64,000 nucleotides of DNA, taken from Escherichia phage ESCO13. Position numbers and translations under genes: made by a program. This document shows, piece after piece, positions 1-7,046 of the stretch (the first letter of the stretch is position 1; each line of letters begins with the position of its first letter). Location: the sequence record NC_047770.1; one strand, written 5' to 3'. The notes beneath the pieces were generated by a model that ran no database searches, had not been told where the DNA came from, and saw nothing but the letters and a program-made list of their open reading frames with translations.

Positions 1-1084
1 ACCGACACAGAACAAAACTGAATAAATCGCGGTATCGAGCTAATCAACCAGCAAACGAATAACCATACCTCCCAGGGTTACAGGCTGTTAGAGAGCCATT
101 TAGAGCGGTTAAAATCGATCAACAACCAACAACAAACCATCAAAAACACCCTTTTACCTCCTTTCTAGTGCAATGATAACCATTATCATCTACCCATGAT
201 TATCTATGCAATATAAGCGCATAATTATAATGTTGATAATAGTTCGCAACAACTAACCAACAAACAACATAAAACAATAAGCAAACTAATCATAATCAAA
301 GGAATAATAGCAAGATGATTGATAACGACAAACAATCAAACCATGATGAATACTAAGCAAGATAACGATAACACGACAAAACAACCAACTAACGAACAAT
401 AACAAACGAAACCATTAAAATAATAACTATTAGCAAAATAGTGCATGAATGAAATCATTACAAAACGAATCATTCACAGAGTCATCATTAGCACGCTATG
501 CCGGACACATAGCGAGCTAATAATAAGCCAACTACACCCCAACAATCATAACCATCGGTGACGGTTATTTCTTGTTACTGCGTAGCTTGCAATAATTGCA
601 AGCGTAATGACGCTTACACTTATTGCGCTGGCTTATTATTAGCATTATATGTAATTACCAAGATCATAACATTAGCGCAATAACAATAATCATTGTAATG
701 GTTACATAAGGAAACAATTAGCATAGCAATAATTATTGGGGGCAATGGGAGGATGATTATCATCATTCCGATACATTGCACACTATGCACATAATAGAAT
801 AAAAGTCAATAATTTTGGGGGCGAAATGTTACCGCCACAGGCGGGAATGTTGAGCACCTTCTCTTAAACGTAAATAAAATCAGAATAATCTTGATTTATT
901 TTAATTTTTATGTTAATAAACGTTTAAATAATAATCATTCTCATATAAATAATAGTCCGTCTGTCATGAGCGGGATCAGTTGACATTGTTCTGTCATATG
1001 ATGAAGTTGCCAAGCCATTGATAAATAAGTGTTTGTGTGATTTATAATCAAGTGGCCCACCTTGTCGCTACGTTGGCATGAGCC
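1..1084. other. ORF-free A/C-rich non-coding region (+ strand T- and G-poor)
   Basis: No ORF >=60 aa in six frames; caacaa/aacaa low-complexity tracts; 8-bp inverted repeat gcttgcaa/ttgcaagc at 585-603. Confidence 0.5.
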
Positions 1085-1465
1085 TTGCATAAGTCATTGA
1101 ATACGAATGATAATTATTCTCATTCGCATGATATTTGGGAATTGTCGCTGCGTGGACCTGACGGCCCGAAAATTCGCGTTAAGCACTTCTTACGTATGCG
1201 CCATGATTTTTGCCATATCATATTGATTCTATTAGATATTCTTGCCATTATTGCCATGAAACAGGGTGTCCCGAAATAATCTCTCCCCGTAGATATTTTG
1301 GGTTACTTTTTATACAAGAGCGGGGTGTCAAAAATAATCGGTATATATGGGATAATTGATAGGAATCCCCTATGATAAATCGATTGTAATTCCTTAAGAT
1401 TGATTGTATGATGTTGGTGATTGATGATTGCCATGAAAGATGGCTAACGATGAGAGGAGATTGTC

Positions 1466-1810
1466 ATGCAAGAGAGTAAAAATGTTCCGTTGAGTAGTTT
1501 ACGTCTAATGAAGTTTTACAAAGCTTGGTTTGCTGGTGAGGTAGAAGGTCACACAACGAGTGGTTTGTGCATATGTTTGATTAAGTATGTAGAGGGAACA
1601 TACCCTGATGAACTGTTACCTCGTCTACAACAAGAGATGAAATCCCAGTTTATTGGTGCAGGACTAGATTACAATTTCCCGTTTAATGAAGGTGGTTATG
1701 AGGAATACACCTTTGAACATAAAAAACATATTTGCCATAAAAACAAACATCGTATACAATGGGTGCTAGATAGAATTCAAGATTATGAAGGAGAGAAAAA
1801 TGACAAATAG
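1466..1810 (+). CDS. hypothetical protein, early paralog family A (copy 1 of 7)
   Basis: SD gagaggag upstream; motifs FYKAW..TSGLCxCL..AGLDYNFPFN..WVLDRI shared with 6 other ORFs. Confidence 0.6.
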   Translation: MQESKNVPLSSLRLMKFYKAWFAGEVEGHTTSGLCICLIKYVEGTYPDELLPRLQQEMKSQFIGAGLDYNFPFNEGGYEEYTFEHKKHICHKNKHRIQWVLDRIQDYEGEKNDK

Positions 1811-2168
1811 TATTCCGTTGAGCAGTGCAACATTGCTTCGCTTCTATAAAGCATGGATTGCCAACTATCCTGCAATGAATCGCACAACGAGTGGCTTATG
1901 TGGTTGTCTGGTAGATTATGTAGATGATTTTGTTGGTGAGACAACTAGAGAAGAAGATAGAAGGTGGCGTGATCATTTGTTAGACCGTTTGAAATATGAA
2001 ATGAGGAAACAATTTACATGTGCAGGGCTGGACTACAATCTTCCGTTCAATGCAGATTGCATGGATTACCTTTCAGAGTGTATAAATTTGGCGTGTCATA
2101 CCAACACGTTACGTCTTCAATGGGTGAAAGATCGCATTGAAGATGCAAATAATGCTTGCATTGAATAA
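1800..2168 (+). CDS. hypothetical protein, paralog family A (copy 2)
   Basis: Start moved to ATG 1800 after SD gaaggagag; motifs FYKAW..GLCGCL..AGLDYNLPFN..WVKDRI. Confidence 0.6.
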   Translation: MTNSIPLSSATLLRFYKAWIANYPAMNRTTSGLCGCLVDYVDDFVGETTREEDRRWRDHLLDRLKYEMRKQFTCAGLDYNLPFNADCMDYLSECINLACHTNTLRLQWVKDRIEDANNACIE

Positions 2169-2226
2169 AAATGTCTGTATGATAGTTTGCATACCGCGCA
2201 TAACAAACAGCTAATGAGGAGATGAA

Positions 2227-2436
2227 ATGAAGAATTTGAAAACTGTCACAATGTTCTTGACTGATCCTACACGTGTGCAAGCACTGGCTAAAGCCAGCCG
2301 TGTAGCTGTAGAATTCCAAAACTTTAAGCCGTCCGTTGTGACAGGCAGTGAAACGTGTGTTATCGATTTCATTAACGAATACTTCCGAGGGAATCCGGTT
2401 GGTCGTTACTTTATTAAGGGTCTGAAGGATGCATAA
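2227..2436 (+). CDS. hypothetical protein
   Basis: ORF with SD gaggag 6 nt upstream. Confidence 0.5.
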   Translation: MKNLKTVTMFLTDPTRVQALAKASRVAVEFQNFKPSVVTGSETCVIDFINEYFRGNPVGRYFIKGLKDA

Positions 2437-2659
2437 CATGAAACGCATGAAAATTCGTATTGAGAATGATGGTGGTTATAAAGGACTTACCCGTGCAAAA
2501 TTTCCACTTGTGTTGGAAGCTACTGTGGAATACAGTGGGCTTGCTCATGTGCGATTCTCGAAGATGATGGAAGTGCAGGAATGGTTTTGGGACGAGATAG
2601 ATGCACGAGAAGGGGAAGATTATGTTTTCTTTCCTCACGAATATGAAATTGTCTATTAA
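2429..2659 (+). CDS. hypothetical protein (family D; C-terminus W-W-E-DYVFF shared with 7048-7269)
   Basis: ORF, weak SD; paralog-like C-terminus. Confidence 0.45.
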   Translation: MHNMKRMKIRIENDGGYKGLTRAKFPLVLEATVEYSGLAHVRFSKMMEVQEWFWDEIDAREGEDYVFFPHEYEIVY

Positions 2660-2662
2660 GGG

Positions 2663-2911
2663 TTGTGTGCAATGATCACACCACAACAGAATGAAGCAGC
2701 AATGGATCTTCTCGATAGTTTGTATTTCGATAATTGGTACTCTGAATGTGAATGGATGAATATGCAAACTCTGAAAGAGAAGACAAAAGCGTTGATTACA
2801 GTAGATCAATTTCTTGCAGAGACGGAAAGAATGAATTATGATATGGCATCTCGCGCACGACGCGTTTCCATTTTCAATAAAATGTTAGCATTATGGGGAG
2901 GTAGAAAATGA
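2663..2911 (+). CDS. hypothetical protein
   Basis: ORF packed between neighbours. Confidence 0.45.
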   Translation: MCAMITPQQNEAAMDLLDSLYFDNWYSECEWMNMQTLKEKTKALITVDQFLAETERMNYDMASRARRVSIFNKMLALWGGRK

Positions 2912-3369
2912 GACAATTCACTATACTGGCAGCTTATGTGCAATGTGTTCACGATTATGTTAGTGCTCATACAGGTTTGCTGGAAGTTACCAGTAAAATT
3001 GAAGGTAATATGGGTACTGTCTGTGTGCAACATACTTTATCCAATGTGCCGTTTAAAGTGTTCACTGTTGTAGCTGCCGATTACAATCGTGTAGATGTGC
3101 GTTTCTTGGATCATAATTTTCGTAACGCACTAGATAATATTGAAGATTATCTTCCCGTGAAACCTTTGTCGTTTCCACCGAGTCGTGCAAATAATGTAGT
3201 GACAAACCTTAATGAAAGGAATGTGGCTATGCACAAAAAAGTCCGTCAATTGAAAATGCTGATGGAAATGCAAGAAGAGATTGAAAAAGAGCTAAAAGAA
3301 GATTTTGGTATGCTTCCAAAAGACGCTTTGAAATGGTATGATGAACTAGGAGGAGAGAGCAATGTTTAA
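2908..3369 (+). CDS. hypothetical protein
   Basis: SD ggggagg upstream; start overlaps preceding stop. Confidence 0.5.
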   Translation: MRQFTILAAYVQCVHDYVSAHTGLLEVTSKIEGNMGTVCVQHTLSNVPFKVFTVVAADYNRVDVRFLDHNFRNALDNIEDYLPVKPLSFPPSRANNVVTNLNERNVAMHKKVRQLKMLMEMQEEIEKELKEDFGMLPKDALKWYDELGGESNV

Positions 3370-5392: not shown

Positions 5393-5601
5393 TGGTTACT
5401 ATCACATTGACAGTTACACAAGAGCAAGCAGAAGAATTACGTGATGCAGTGGCATACATGGGACGCTCTTATTATATGCCTTATAAATCACAAGATGTTT
5501 TTGCTACAGCCATTGAGAAAGCTTTAAACAAATATCGAGAAACTCATGCCGTTCCTAAAGTATCAGCAGAAGAGTTTGGCACTTGGCACGAAGTTCACTA
5601 A
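5392..5601 (+). CDS. hypothetical protein
   Basis: Start moved to ATG 5392 after SD ggaggtg. Confidence 0.45.
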   Translation: MVTITLTVTQEQAEELRDAVAYMGRSYYMPYKSQDVFATAIEKALNKYRETHAVPKVSAEEFGTWHEVH

Positions 5602-6652: not shown

Positions 6653-6843
6653 TGTTTAGTTTCTTGGTAATTGTTATAGTTGTTCTTTTCGCAGCATGGC
6701 TTTGGGATTTTGACCCAGGAGCAGCGCAGCAAAGAGCTACAGACTGGAAAGAACAATGTATTGTGCTCAAACATGAACGAAATGCGGAGAAATTTCTTGA
6801 CCTGGAGTGTGATCGCCTTGTAAGATACAAGCAAGATAAATAA
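6643..6843 (+). CDS. small membrane protein, family C (KEQCIVxK..KFLD)
   Basis: Start moved to ATG 6643 after SD aggagg; hydrophobic N-terminus; paralog of 12317-12523. Confidence 0.5.
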   Translation: MPIVFSFLVIVIVVLFAAWLWDFDPGAAQQRATDWKEQCIVLKHERNAEKFLDLECDRLVRYKQDK

Positions 6844-6857
6844 CCTTGAGGTGCAAA

Positions 6858-7046
6858 ATGGTAATTGAGATTAAACTTGAATATGCTGGGGCTGTTGCCT
6901 TGATCGCACAAACGTTTGGAGCAAAAATTGAAGAAGTGTATATCAATGCCTGGAGCGTAGAGATTGATGTTCCTATGGATAACATTGCGAATCGCTTGCT
7001 GGTGGCAGAGTGTGAACGCACCAACATAATCTACAAAGGAGCATAA
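6858..7046 (+). CDS. hypothetical protein
   Basis: Start moved to ATG 6858 after SD gaggtg. Confidence 0.4.
   Translation: MVIEIKLEYAGAVALIAQTFGAKIEEVYINAWSVEIDVPMDNIANRLLVAECERTNIIYKGA

What the first reader, a model, noticed from the sequence alone, without database searches (positions are those of the whole stretch)
1..1084. One-kilobase ORF-free region with extreme strand composition bias
The + strand is dominated by A and C with few T or G, no ORF of 60 aa or more in any frame, low-complexity caacaa tracts, an 8-bp inverted repeat at 585-603 and a repeated ttgggggc motif near 735 and 815. It could be a genome terminus or packaging region, an origin, or a non-coding RNA locus.
Basis: seen in the sequence. 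Interest (0 to 1): 0.5.

Follow-up and report, generated by a model that had tools for sequence, protein, structure and literature searches.

The report
Phage genome end region with folded element
This gene-free stretch is where the physical ends of a phAPEC8-like E. coli phage genome lie: a 329-bp terminal repeat with its two cutting sites, preceded by a conserved, tightly folded 166-base element that has not been described.

Summary
The window is a Phapecoctavirus genome (97.7% identical to phage nepoznato), written so that its physical ends fall inside it. The finding lies in a 1.46-kb gene-free gap (1-1465). The gap is real, but the A/C bias covers only 1-560. Eleven GenBank records of relatives open at window position 853. 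Phage Schickermooser has an exact 329-bp repeat at both ends, and phi92's annotated right repeat has the same boundaries. So 853-1181 is the direct terminal repeat, 1-852 is the unique DNA before the right-hand copy, and 1182-1465 is the leader of the first early genes. Both boundaries carry GTTR^AGCAC. At 482-647 sits a 166-nt multi-helix element found in every sampled clade of the subfamily: 61 pairs, 95% paired, 16 pairs with compensatory changes, z about -10. All non-Watson-Crick pairs are G.U on the minus strand. It has no Rfam match. Fur-box-like sites are enriched roughly 40-fold (8 seen, 0.21 expected). About 80 bp around the right cut site recurs in chromosomal islands of 242 E. coli genomes. 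Whether the folded element and the G-poor tract serve packaging, replication priming or act as an RNA is unresolved.

The parts
18..47 (.). Most conserved sequence block of the right-end region (CTGAATAAATCGCGGTATCGAGCTAATCAA). In relatives it lies about 90 nt after a strong, apparently bidirectional intrinsic terminator that is just outside the window.
   Evidence: Nearly identical in Phapecoctavirus, the Wec179 clade and Justusliebigvirus. A short match is also found in Avunavirus-like phages. No convincing sigma-70 promoter was found (and reading of the sequence).
100..480 (+). G-poor, A-rich tract (the strand bias that was flagged). As plus-strand RNA it is almost structure-free. It is 67-74% A+T.
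   Evidence: Composition. The MFE of 120-nt windows is only -0.8 to -10 kcal/mol on the plus strand. G depletion recurs in KP13-26 (3-10% G) and Tr1 (5-10% G) although the sequence has diverged to about 50-55% identity. There is no conserved ORF, no phased A-tracts and no Hfq-type motif excess.
482..647 (-). Conserved 166-nt folded element. A 15-bp closing helix (516-530 with 629-643) encloses a three-way junction with two arms. One arm ends in hairpin B (548-568). The other pairs half of the 585-603 palindrome with 612-626. Hairpin A (487-521) is adjacent.
   Evidence: RNA MFE is -76.4 kcal/mol with z -10.1 on the minus strand, against -56.5 and z -6.7 on the plus strand. On 18 distinct sequences: 61 pairs, 95.3% paired, 16 pairs changed on both sides, 0 of 500 shuffles as good. 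There are 105 G.T cells and 0 A.C cells on the minus strand. The covariance model finds one copy in the 64 kb. No Rfam match.
429..722 (+). Five copies of ATTAGC(A), at 429, 487, 638, 671 and 717. Two of them are strands of helices of the folded element. KP13-26 has four tandem GGTATTATTAGC copies.
   Evidence: ATTAGCA occurs 4 times in 1-1465 and 4 times in the other 62.5 kb. KP13-26 and Tr1 repeats were read.
648..846 (.). Fast-evolving spacer with indels. It holds G-run plus small-hairpin modules (736-775 and 815-844). Its length differs among relatives: the distance from the palindrome to the repeat is 238 to 525 bp.
   Evidence: Alignment; distances and module copies.
815..857 (+). Left cut-site module: TTGGGGGCGAAA, a hairpin (CCGCC-ACA-GGCGG, 832-844), then ATGTTG^AGCAC. 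The cut lies between 852 and 853.
   Evidence: Eleven records of relatives begin or end exactly at 853. phi92's annotated right repeat starts after TTTGTTG. The hairpin's sequence differs in each clade but its pairing is kept. There are 1-3 tandem copies of the module depending on the phage.
853..1181 (.). Direct terminal repeat (329 bp). It is present once in this permuted window and would be at both ends of virion DNA.
   Evidence: The first and last 329 bp of the Schickermooser record are identical and match these coordinates. The repeat is reported as 328 bp in PMC6563267. phi92 has an annotated right terminal repeat of 343 bp. BME3 has a 342-bp repeat by PhageTerm (PMC12210895). Four records carry it at both ends. 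There is no second copy in the window.
1129..1186 (+). Right cut-site module: TGATATTTGGG, about 45 nt, then TTCGCGTTA^AGCAC. The cut lies between 1181 and 1182.
   Evidence: The Schickermooser and phi92 records end at ...CGCGTTA. Both conserved blocks are kept in all clades. About 80 bp (1129-1209) recurs at 83-84% identity beside a recombinase gene in tRNA-linked islands of E. coli.
169..1127 (.). Cluster of Fur-box-like palindromes at 169-193, 631-649, 679-697, 749-770, 924-942 and 1103-1127. Two of them are inside the repeat.
   Evidence: There are 8 hits of at least 14/19 to GATAATGATAATCATTATC, against 0.21 expected from dinucleotide shuffles. At 13/19 or better there are 11 hits in 1-1465 and 36 in the remaining 62.5 kb. 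The sites at the positions of 169-193, 924-942 and 1103-1127 are kept in other clades, reaching 17/19.
1182..1465 (+). Left-end leader between the repeat and the first early gene (ATG at 1466). It has promoter-like sites, two GGGTGTC-N3-AAATAATC repeats (1264-1281 and 1323-1339), TTGCCAT(GA) repeats and a ribosome-binding site.
   Evidence: Promoter scan (TTGCCA-18-AATAAT at 1251-1280, 10/12). Repeats. The stretch 1300-1465 is 82-92% identical to Justusliebigvirus.

Best explanation
The region is the cis-acting terminal region of a phAPEC8-like (Phapecoctavirus, Stephanstirmvirinae) myovirus. The source record is permuted, so the physical ends lie inside the window.

Shown by comparison:
- 853-1181 is the 329-bp direct terminal repeat.
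- 1-852 is the unique non-coding DNA that precedes the right-hand repeat copy in the virion.
- 1182-1465 follows the left-hand copy and leads into the first early genes.
- Both repeat boundaries carry the same short motif, GTTG^AGCAC and GTTA^AGCAC.

Inferred mechanism. On concatemers, terminase recognises these two sites and nicks or cuts at both boundaries. The repeat is duplicated by strand-displacement synthesis, as proposed for T7-type ends. The early genes read inward from the left end, which suggests that end enters the cell first and the right end is packaged first. On that reading, the conserved right-end module (1-650) is where packaging and/or replication is started.

Inside that module, a 166-nt element (482-647) folds on the minus strand into a closing helix, a three-way junction and an extra hairpin. 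It is flanked by a G-poor tract of about 400 nt. Read on the minus strand, that tract is C-poor with G exceeding C. My preferred reading (inferred, not shown) is that a minus-strand transcript, or the transiently single minus strand, forms this structure. The module would then act like the T7 right-end region, which combines a replication promoter and packaging signals next to the repeat.
For: Identity of the genome: 97.7% over 1-1450 to phage nepoznato, and 74 related records.

Terminus:
- Eleven records open at 853, and four also end at 1180/1181.
- Schickermooser has an exact 329-bp repeat at both ends, reported in PMC6563267.
- The phi92 right repeat is annotated with the same boundaries.
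- BME3 has a 342-bp repeat by PhageTerm.
- The subfamily is said to end in direct terminal repeats (PMC12695924).
- The boundary motif is conserved in all clades.
- The right-boundary module is portable: it occurs in islands of 242 E. coli genomes.

Folded element.

G-poor property kept across clades.

Flanking terminator with T-runs on both strands: read.
Against: - No reads or virion-end data exist for this genome. The window holds one repeat copy, so the ends are inferred from relatives.
- Terminase binding, nicking and the direction of packaging are untested.
- No convincing conserved sigma-70 promoter was found for either strand near the folded element. TATAAT at 644-649 on the minus strand is present in some clades only, has a poor -35, and abuts the closing helix.
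- High identity of 1-600 with the Wec179 clade (86-97%) may reflect mosaic exchange together with the very conserved upstream gene rather than constraint.
- The related rV5 group has a different non-coding region without this element.
Confidence: 0.8

Rival explanations
1. The core of the finding is a gene for a trans-acting non-coding RNA. A minus-strand transcript would have a 166-nt structured 5' domain (482-647) and a long G/U-rich tail ending at the bidirectional terminator left of the window. It would act on host or phage targets rather than in cis on the DNA.
For: - Covariation in 16 pairs, including a closing helix whose strands lie about 100 nt apart.
- Three invariant G.U pairs and no A.C cells on the minus strand, a pattern typical of RNA.
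- z about -10.
- A -10-like hexamer just upstream on the minus strand in several clades (TATAAT, TACAAT, TAGAAT, TATATT; read).
- Only one copy per genome.
Against: - No transcript data were found in the library.
- The -35 is poor and the -10 is missing in Justusliebigvirus, KP13-26 and Tr1.
- The -10 abuts the closing helix, so a transcript from it would lose part of that helix.
- No Rfam family matches.
- DNA energy parameters give a similar z (-9.9), so a DNA structure fits as well.
Confidence: 0.3
2. The right-end module is an RNA-primed origin of replication. Transcription on the minus strand through the C-poor tract, where G exceeds C, would form a stable R-loop. The structured domain would control it, as in ColE1 RNA II or the T4 and T7 origins, and DNA synthesis would proceed leftward across the genome.
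For: - The tract is 67-74% A+T against a genome value of 61.5%.
- On the minus strand G is 23% and C 13% over 1-560. From general knowledge, this skew favours R-loops.
- The property, rather than the sequence, is kept in distant clades.
- The folded strand is the same minus strand.
- The T7 right end also carries a replication promoter beside the repeat (own knowledge, Dunn and Studier 1983).
Against: - No promoter, initiator gene or DnaA-type boxes were identified.
- Cumulative GC skew in the window follows gene orientation only.
- ATTAGC repeats are few, and two of them are explained by helices.
- Nothing was tested directly.
Confidence: 0.25
3. The region is mainly a host-factor control region. 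The Fur-box-like palindromes would bind E. coli Fur (or a phage protein of similar specificity), tying early transcription or end processing to iron status.
For: - 8 sites at 14/19 or better against 0.21 expected.
- Sites at matching positions in other clades reach 17/19.
- The site at 1103-1127 overlaps a weak promoter-like ATGATA-17-GATATT (reading of the sequence).
Against: - This is sequence resemblance only; the consensus is recalled from the literature and is not a curated matrix.
- A/T-rich palindromes are common in phage operators.
- One hit (631-649) is simply a strand of the closing helix.
- The E. coli island copy of the cut-site module lacks the adjacent box.
Confidence: 0.2
4. The stretch is a decayed or unannotated protein-coding region, or a spacer without function whose composition reflects mutational drift.
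For: Plus-strand G poverty occurs elsewhere in the window too. Some pipelines call tiny ORFs here.
Against: - No ORF of 60 aa or more, and no small ORF conserved across clades.
- Strong covariation.
- Conserved motifs at fixed positions relative to the genome ends.
Confidence: 0.03

Closest known systems
Terminal repeats of phi92, BME3 and vB_EcoM_Schickermooser (Stephanstirmvirinae)
   Same: The element is homologous. The boundaries are the same (GTTG^AGC... and ...CGCGTTA), the repeat length is 329-343 bp, and it sits in the same place between the same small early genes.
   Different: Published descriptions that I could read give only the repeat length. None of those texts mentions the boundary motif, the tandem cut-site modules, the folded element or the G-poor tract.
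Right-end / concatemer-junction region of phage T7 and T3 (own knowledge: Dunn and Studier 1983; Chung et al. 1990; Fujisawa and Morita 1997)
   Same: Both have a short direct terminal repeat. Both have a non-coding stretch before the right-hand copy with short repeats and palindromes. In T7 and T3 that stretch combines packaging signals and a replication promoter, and early genes read inward from the left end.
   Different: There is no sequence similarity. This phage has no phage RNA polymerase promoter of the T7 kind, and it is a 150-kb myovirus. The 166-nt multi-helix element and a direct-repeat motif at both boundaries are not features I know from T7.
phi29 packaging RNA (pRNA)
   Same: It is encoded close to a genome end, is about 170 nt, and has a closing helix, a three-way junction with two arms and an extra hairpin.
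   Different: The Rfam search, whose library I recall includes a pRNA model, gave no match. I found no complementary loop pair that covaries (reading). phi29 packages protein-primed DNA without a terminase, whereas these phages cut concatemers at a repeat.
ColE1 RNA II and T4 oriF/oriG type RNA-primed origins
   Same: A structured RNA domain is followed by a tract where the RNA-like strand has G exceeding C and the duplex is A+T-rich.
   Different: No promoter, RNase H site or primer end is known here. The resemblance is one of layout only.
Helper-phage packaging sites carried by satellites (P4 with the P2 cos site, cos-type PICIs)
   Same: A short copy of the phage's end-processing site (about 80 bp around 1181/1182) lies in roughly 12-kb tRNA-linked islands with integrase, capsid-like, tape-measure and replication-initiator genes.
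   Different: Mobilisation is untested. Only the right-boundary module is present. The islands are not classified as any known satellite type here.

Membership tests
Phapecoctavirus / Stephanstirmvirinae genome | High nucleotide identity and synteny with type members | tested here: met
   97.7% to nepoznato and 93.2% to phAPEC8 over 1-1450, with the same flanking small genes.
Short direct terminal repeat genome ends (T7-type) | The same sequence is present at both ends of the linear virion DNA | tested here: met
   Met for close relatives: Schickermooser has an exact 329 bp at both record ends; four more records carry both copies; phi92's right repeat is annotated. For this genome itself it is inferred, because the window holds one copy.
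Short direct terminal repeat genome ends (T7-type) | Fixed, sequence-specific boundaries | tested here: met
   Eleven records open at 853. GTTG^AGC and CGCGTTA^AGCAC are conserved in all clades.
Short direct terminal repeat genome ends (T7-type) | Read-start peaks at the boundaries and about twofold coverage over the repeat | not testable with these tools
   No sequencing reads are available. PhageTerm results are reported only for the relative BME3.
Short direct terminal repeat genome ends (T7-type) | Terminase large subunit that groups with repeat-generating terminases | not tested
   The terminase gene was not located or analysed.
Any described RNA family (Rfam 15) | Covariance-model match | tested here: not met
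   No match at E up to 1 in window 1-3000, and none at E up to 0.1 in three other clades.
Structured functional RNA (generic) | Conserved secondary structure with compensatory changes | tested here: met
   61 pairs, 95.3% paired, 16 pairs with changes on both sides, 0 of 500 shuffles; slid controls give 26-52% paired.
Structured functional RNA (generic) | The region is transcribed (promoter, transcript) | tested here: inconclusive
   Only weak, partly conserved promoter-like hexamers. No transcriptome was found.
phi29-type packaging RNA | Two loops complementary between molecules, forming a ring | tested here: not met
   The loops of the two arms (CAUU and ACC in this phage) are not complementary. 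Loop changes among clades have no covarying partner (reading).
Fur-regulated site | Match to the 19-bp Fur box consensus | tested here: met
   8 hits at 14/19 or better against 0.21 expected; up to 17/19 in relatives. The consensus comes from memory of the literature.
Fur-regulated site | Fur binding and iron-dependent effect | not testable with these tools
   Needs EMSA or ChIP and infection of a fur deletion host.
Hfq/Crc-titrating A-rich RNAs (CrcZ-like) | Excess of AANAANAA or (ARN)n motifs | tested here: not met
   Not above dinucleotide shuffles in the window, and absent in Tr1 and KP13-26.
Iteron or RNA-primed replication origin | A+T-rich unwinding tract next to repeated initiator sites or a priming promoter | tested here: inconclusive
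   The A+T-rich tract is present and ATTAGC repeats are enriched. No promoter or initiator was identified.
Intrinsically bent packaging site (SPP1 pac, lambda cosB type) | A-tracts phased at about 10.5 bp | tested here: not met
   No periodicity at 10-11 bp in any of five clades.

The most novel reading that the evidence does not exclude
The 166-nt element at 482-647 is a new class of phage RNA, transcribed from the minus strand beside the genome end. Together with its C-poor tail it would either prime replication or take part in end recognition and packaging. That would be an RNA component in the end biology of a terminase-type myovirus, the nearest parallels being phi29 pRNA or ColE1 RNA II. 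A linked possibility is that E. coli chromosomal islands carrying a copy of the phage's right cut site are satellites that exploit this end-processing machinery.
Probability: 0.25. Interest if true: 0.75.

Novelty: new variant of a known kind. Interest (0 to 1): 0.5.

Why it matters
Phages of the phAPEC8 and phi92 groups are common in sewage and the gut and are used in therapy cocktails. Yet their records are opened at arbitrary positions, and their ends are rarely annotated.

Fixing the repeat to exact boundaries, with a recognisable cut-site motif, allows the roughly 130 related records to be co-linearised and their ends predicted from sequence alone.

The folded element is a clean, testable candidate for a cis-acting packaging or replication signal, or for a new RNA. 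Its helices could be tested with compensatory mutants.

If the chromosomal islands that carry the right cut site are mobilised, that would be a satellite system for a virulent E. coli myovirus.

Tried and rejected
- Rfam at permissive thresholds on the window and on three other clades: nothing.
- tRNA and tmRNA search: none.
- Intrinsic terminators inside the region: none.
- Sigma-70 promoter scan: 15 sites against 11.9 expected, so not informative.
- Hfq or Crc sponge idea: A-rich motif counts are not above shuffles and are not conserved.
- Bent DNA: no 10-11 bp A-tract phasing.
- Small proteins: no ORF conserved across clades in 1-850. A strong minus-strand ribosome-binding sequence (AAGGAGGT, 155-162) with a 24-codon hydrophobic ORF is lost in the Wec179 clade.
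- Homology with the non-coding box of rV5: none by motif or by covariance model.
- The plus strand as the folded strand: the same core helices form, but with A.C mismatches and a weaker z.
- The 585-603 palindrome as a free-standing hairpin: its 'loop' bases covary with 612-626, so the three-way-junction pairing is preferred.
- Collection scans for more distant copies found only 4 viral and 6 metagenome loci, all of the same subfamily.
- The phi92 genome paper is not held in the library.

Full report
WHAT THE SEQUENCE IS

Window 1-1450 is 97.7% identical to Escherichia phage nepoznato and 93% identical to phAPEC8. Seventy-four phage records match closely, and 133 match at lower stringency. The window is therefore a Phapecoctavirus genome (Stephanstirmvirinae; about 150 kb, 39% G+C).

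In every annotated relative, the finding lies in a gene-free gap of about 1.5 kb inside a dense array of small plus-strand early genes. In phAPEC8 the gap runs from the terminator after gp17 (5494-5512) to gp18 (7022). Window position 1 corresponds to phAPEC8 5556, so it is not a physical end.

CHECK OF THE OBSERVATION

- The longest ORF within 1-1084 is 56 aa, so the ORF-free claim holds.
- The A/C bias is real but covers only 1-560: A 44%, C 23%, G 13%, T 20%. A+C is 67%, the highest value among 500-nt windows of the 64 kb (mean 50.3%, sd 3.4).
- From 561 onward the composition is ordinary.
- G poverty alone is matched elsewhere in the window, at positions that fall in the span of negative GC skew. 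The unusual part is that A also far exceeds T.
- The inverted repeat at 585-603 and the two ttgggggc copies are present.

THE PHYSICAL ENDS

Eleven GenBank records of relatives begin, or on the other strand end, exactly at window position 853. Four of these also end at 1180/1181.

The Schickermooser record has an exact 329-bp identity between its first and last bases, AGCA...GCGTTA. Its authors report a 328-bp terminal repeat (PMC6563267).

The phi92 record annotates a 343-bp right terminal repeat. It starts after TTTGTTG and ends at ...CGCGTTA, the same two boundaries. BME3 has a 342-bp repeat by PhageTerm. The subfamily is described as ending in direct terminal repeats.

From this I conclude:
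- 853-1181 is the direct terminal repeat.
- 1-852 is the unique non-coding DNA before its right-hand copy.
- 1182-1465 is the leader after its left-hand copy.

The window has a single copy of the repeat, as expected for a record assembled as a circle.

CUT-SITE ANATOMY

Both boundaries read GTTR^AGCAC (ATGTTG^AGCACCTTCT and CGCGTTA^AGCACTTCT), in the same orientation and in all clades. By itself the 9-mer is not rare: 3 copies in the window against 1.1 expected. The evidence lies in its position and conservation.

The left site is preceded by a G-run and a small hairpin. The hairpin's sequence differs in every clade, but its pairing is kept. This module occurs in one to three tandem copies: three in nepoznato and KP13-26, two in Tr1.

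The right site is preceded, about 45 nt upstream, by the conserved TTGATATTTGRG.

THE FOLDED ELEMENT

Between the G-poor tract and the variable spacer lies a block conserved in all sampled clades: Phapecoctavirus, the Wec179/PsgM04F clade, Justusliebigvirus/phi92, KP13-26, Tr1 and ten uncultivated contigs.

A first structure of three hairpins gave 96% pairing with 9 doubly changed pairs. RNAalifold then found a long-range closing helix that covaries: AAGCC/GGCTT, ACCGC/GCGGT, AACGC/GCGTT and AACAC/GTGTT.

Strand comparison:
- As RNA, the minus strand of 482-647 folds to -76.4 kcal/mol (z -10.1). The plus strand gives -56.5 (z -6.7).
- With DNA parameters the z-scores are -9.9 and -7.3.
- A sliding scan shows this is the only strongly structured part of 1-1600.

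The minus-strand structure has a 15-bp closing helix, a three-way junction with two composite arms, and an adjacent hairpin. Projected on 18 distinct sequences it gives 61 pairs, 95.3% paired, 16 pairs changed on both sides and 0 of 500 shuffles as good. Slid controls give 26-52% paired.

All 105 non-Watson-Crick cells in the stems are G.T on the minus strand and none is A.C. Three G.U pairs are invariant. This count favours the minus strand partly by construction, because the structure was derived from that strand. However, in helices predicted on both strands the same rule holds. One example is hairpin B, with three or four independent transitions.

The 'loop' of the 585-603 palindrome covaries with 612-626, so the junction pairing is preferred over a free hairpin.

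A covariance model finds one copy in the window and none in the non-coding region of rV5. No Rfam family matches.

THE G-POOR TRACT

Its sequence is 86-97% identical between Phapecoctavirus and the Wec179 clade, more than the repeat itself. This may reflect mosaic exchange together with the highly conserved upstream gene.

In KP13-26 and Tr1 the sequence has diverged to about 50-55% identity, yet plus-strand G stays at 3-10%. What is conserved is therefore the composition rather than the sequence.

The tract is not coding. It is not phased-A bent DNA, and it is not enriched in Hfq-type motifs. As plus-strand RNA it would be almost unstructured. As the minus strand it has G exceeding C and T exceeding A.

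OTHER SIGNALS

Fur-box-like palindromes are strongly enriched: 8 at 14/19 or better against 0.21 expected. Two lie inside the repeat, and the sites at matching positions in other clades reach 17/19. Binding is untested.

ATTAGC(A) is enriched, but two of its copies are strands of helices.

A PORTABLE COPY OF THE RIGHT CUT SITE

About 80 bp (1129-1209), spanning the right boundary, occurs at 83-84% identity in the chromosomes of 242 of 5426 complete E. coli genomes.

In two genomes examined, it lies directly after a small serine recombinase gene (DNA invertase type). This is at the tRNA-proximal end of an element integrated at tRNA-Leu in one genome and tRNA-Thr in the other. In the tRNA-Leu genome, where the element was examined in full (about 12 kb), it encodes an integrase, a tape-measure protein, a tail-fibre-like protein, a weak major-head-like protein and an O-like replication initiator. 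It also has its own iteron-rich gap. In the tRNA-Thr genome the stretch examined shows an annotated major capsid protein, small hypothetical genes and the same recombinase.

The copy keeps both blocks that are conserved among all phage clades, including a 26-nt run that is specific to the Phapecoctavirus core clade. This suggests that the right-boundary module is a self-contained functional unit. It also raises the untested possibility that these islands use the phage's end-processing machinery.

HOW IT MOST LIKELY WORKS

Shown: the positions of the repeat and its boundaries in relatives, the boundary motif, and the conserved folded element with its strand preference.

Inferred: terminase acts at the two GTTR^AGCAC sites on concatemers, and the repeat is duplicated as in T7-type phages. 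The right-end module (1-650) starts packaging and/or replication. This matches the layout of the T7 right end, where a replication promoter and packaging signals sit beside the repeat (own knowledge).

The G/C asymmetry and the strand of the fold are both consistent with a minus-strand transcript. That transcript would be structured at its 5' end and would then run through a tract prone to R-loops. No conserved promoter supports this, however.

The trans-acting RNA, origin and Fur-control readings are not mutually exclusive with the terminus reading.

VERDICT

The flagged feature is real. Its terminus/packaging interpretation is essentially right, and at the level of 'this family has a short terminal repeat' it is already known.

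I found no description, in the papers I could search and read, of the following:
- the exact boundary motif and its tandem modules;
- the covarying 166-nt element with minus-strand preference;
- the conserved G-poor tract;
- the Fur-box-like cluster;
- the chromosomal copy of the cut site.

Noticed in passing
L026 39498-39576 (E. coli NZ_CP024257.1) and L027 7001-7079 (NZ_CP031546.1); window 1129-1209: About 80 bp spanning the phage's right repeat boundary recurs in 242 of 5426 complete E. coli genomes. In the two genomes examined it lies directly after a small DNA-invertase-type recombinase gene, at the tRNA-proximal end of a tRNA-integrated element. The tRNA-Leu element (about 12 kb) has integrase, tape-measure, tail-fibre-like, head-like and O-like replication genes. 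These islands may be satellites or defective prophages that share or exploit the phage's end-processing site.
   Followed up: partly
L001 about 6840-7000 (phage nepoznato); also KP13-26 (L016) and Tr1 (L015): The G-run, hairpin and ATGTTGAGCAC module before the repeat is present in two or three tandem copies in some phages. Only the last copy is followed by the repeat sequence. The extra copies look like footprints of duplicated end sites.
   Followed up: partly
L024 4421-7024 (phage rV5): After the homologue of the same upstream gene (91% aa identity), rV5 has a 2.6-kb gene-free region that is unrelated in sequence. It holds about ten GT(A/G)AACAG-type repeats around 990-1140, and the folded element is absent.
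   Followed up: partly
window 1264-1281 and 1323-1339; 1210-1260 and 1428-1436: The left-end leader holds two GGGTGTC-N3-AAATAATC repeats, conserved in Justusliebigvirus, and several TTGCCAT(GA) repeats. The iterons in the E. coli island's non-coding gap also contain GGGGTGTC. The similarity is weak.
   Followed up: no
window 1303-1434, minus strand: A 43-aa ORF (MAIINHQHHTINLKELQSIYHRGF...) is kept in muut (90% aa) and Wec179 (67% aa). It overlaps the conserved leader and promoter region, so the conservation may be at the DNA level only.
   Followed up: no
window 155-162, minus strand (plus strand ACCTCCTT): A perfect ribosome-binding sequence AAGGAGGT on the minus strand is followed by a 24-codon hydrophobic ORF. 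On the plus strand the same bases mimic the 3' end of 16S rRNA. Neither the start codon nor the reading frame is kept in the Wec179 clade.
   Followed up: partly
L002 (phAPEC8) 556-575, 937-956, 1787-1806, 3202-3221: The 'phage promoters' annotated in phAPEC8 are a conserved hairpin (GTAGGGCGGCAATGGTGCCGCC). At 3165-3221 it lies just downstream of an annotated sigma-70-type promoter. It is more likely a 5' stem-loop of early transcripts than a promoter.
   Followed up: no
window 1466-1810 and 1785-2168: The first two genes after the left end are paralogues, with shared motifs such as PLSS...FYKAW...TSGLC...GLDYN(F/L)PFN. A further copy of the family occurs downstream in relatives (VOG7392).
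   Followed up: no
phage records: Records labelled as Campylobacter, Pseudomonas, Acinetobacter, Klebsiella and Dompiswa phages are 79-96% identical to these E. coli phages in this region. The host labels deserve checking.
   Followed up: no
window about 20000 and about 56000: Cumulative GC skew turns at about 20 kb and about 56 kb. The changes look like switches in gene orientation rather than replication landmarks.
   Followed up: no
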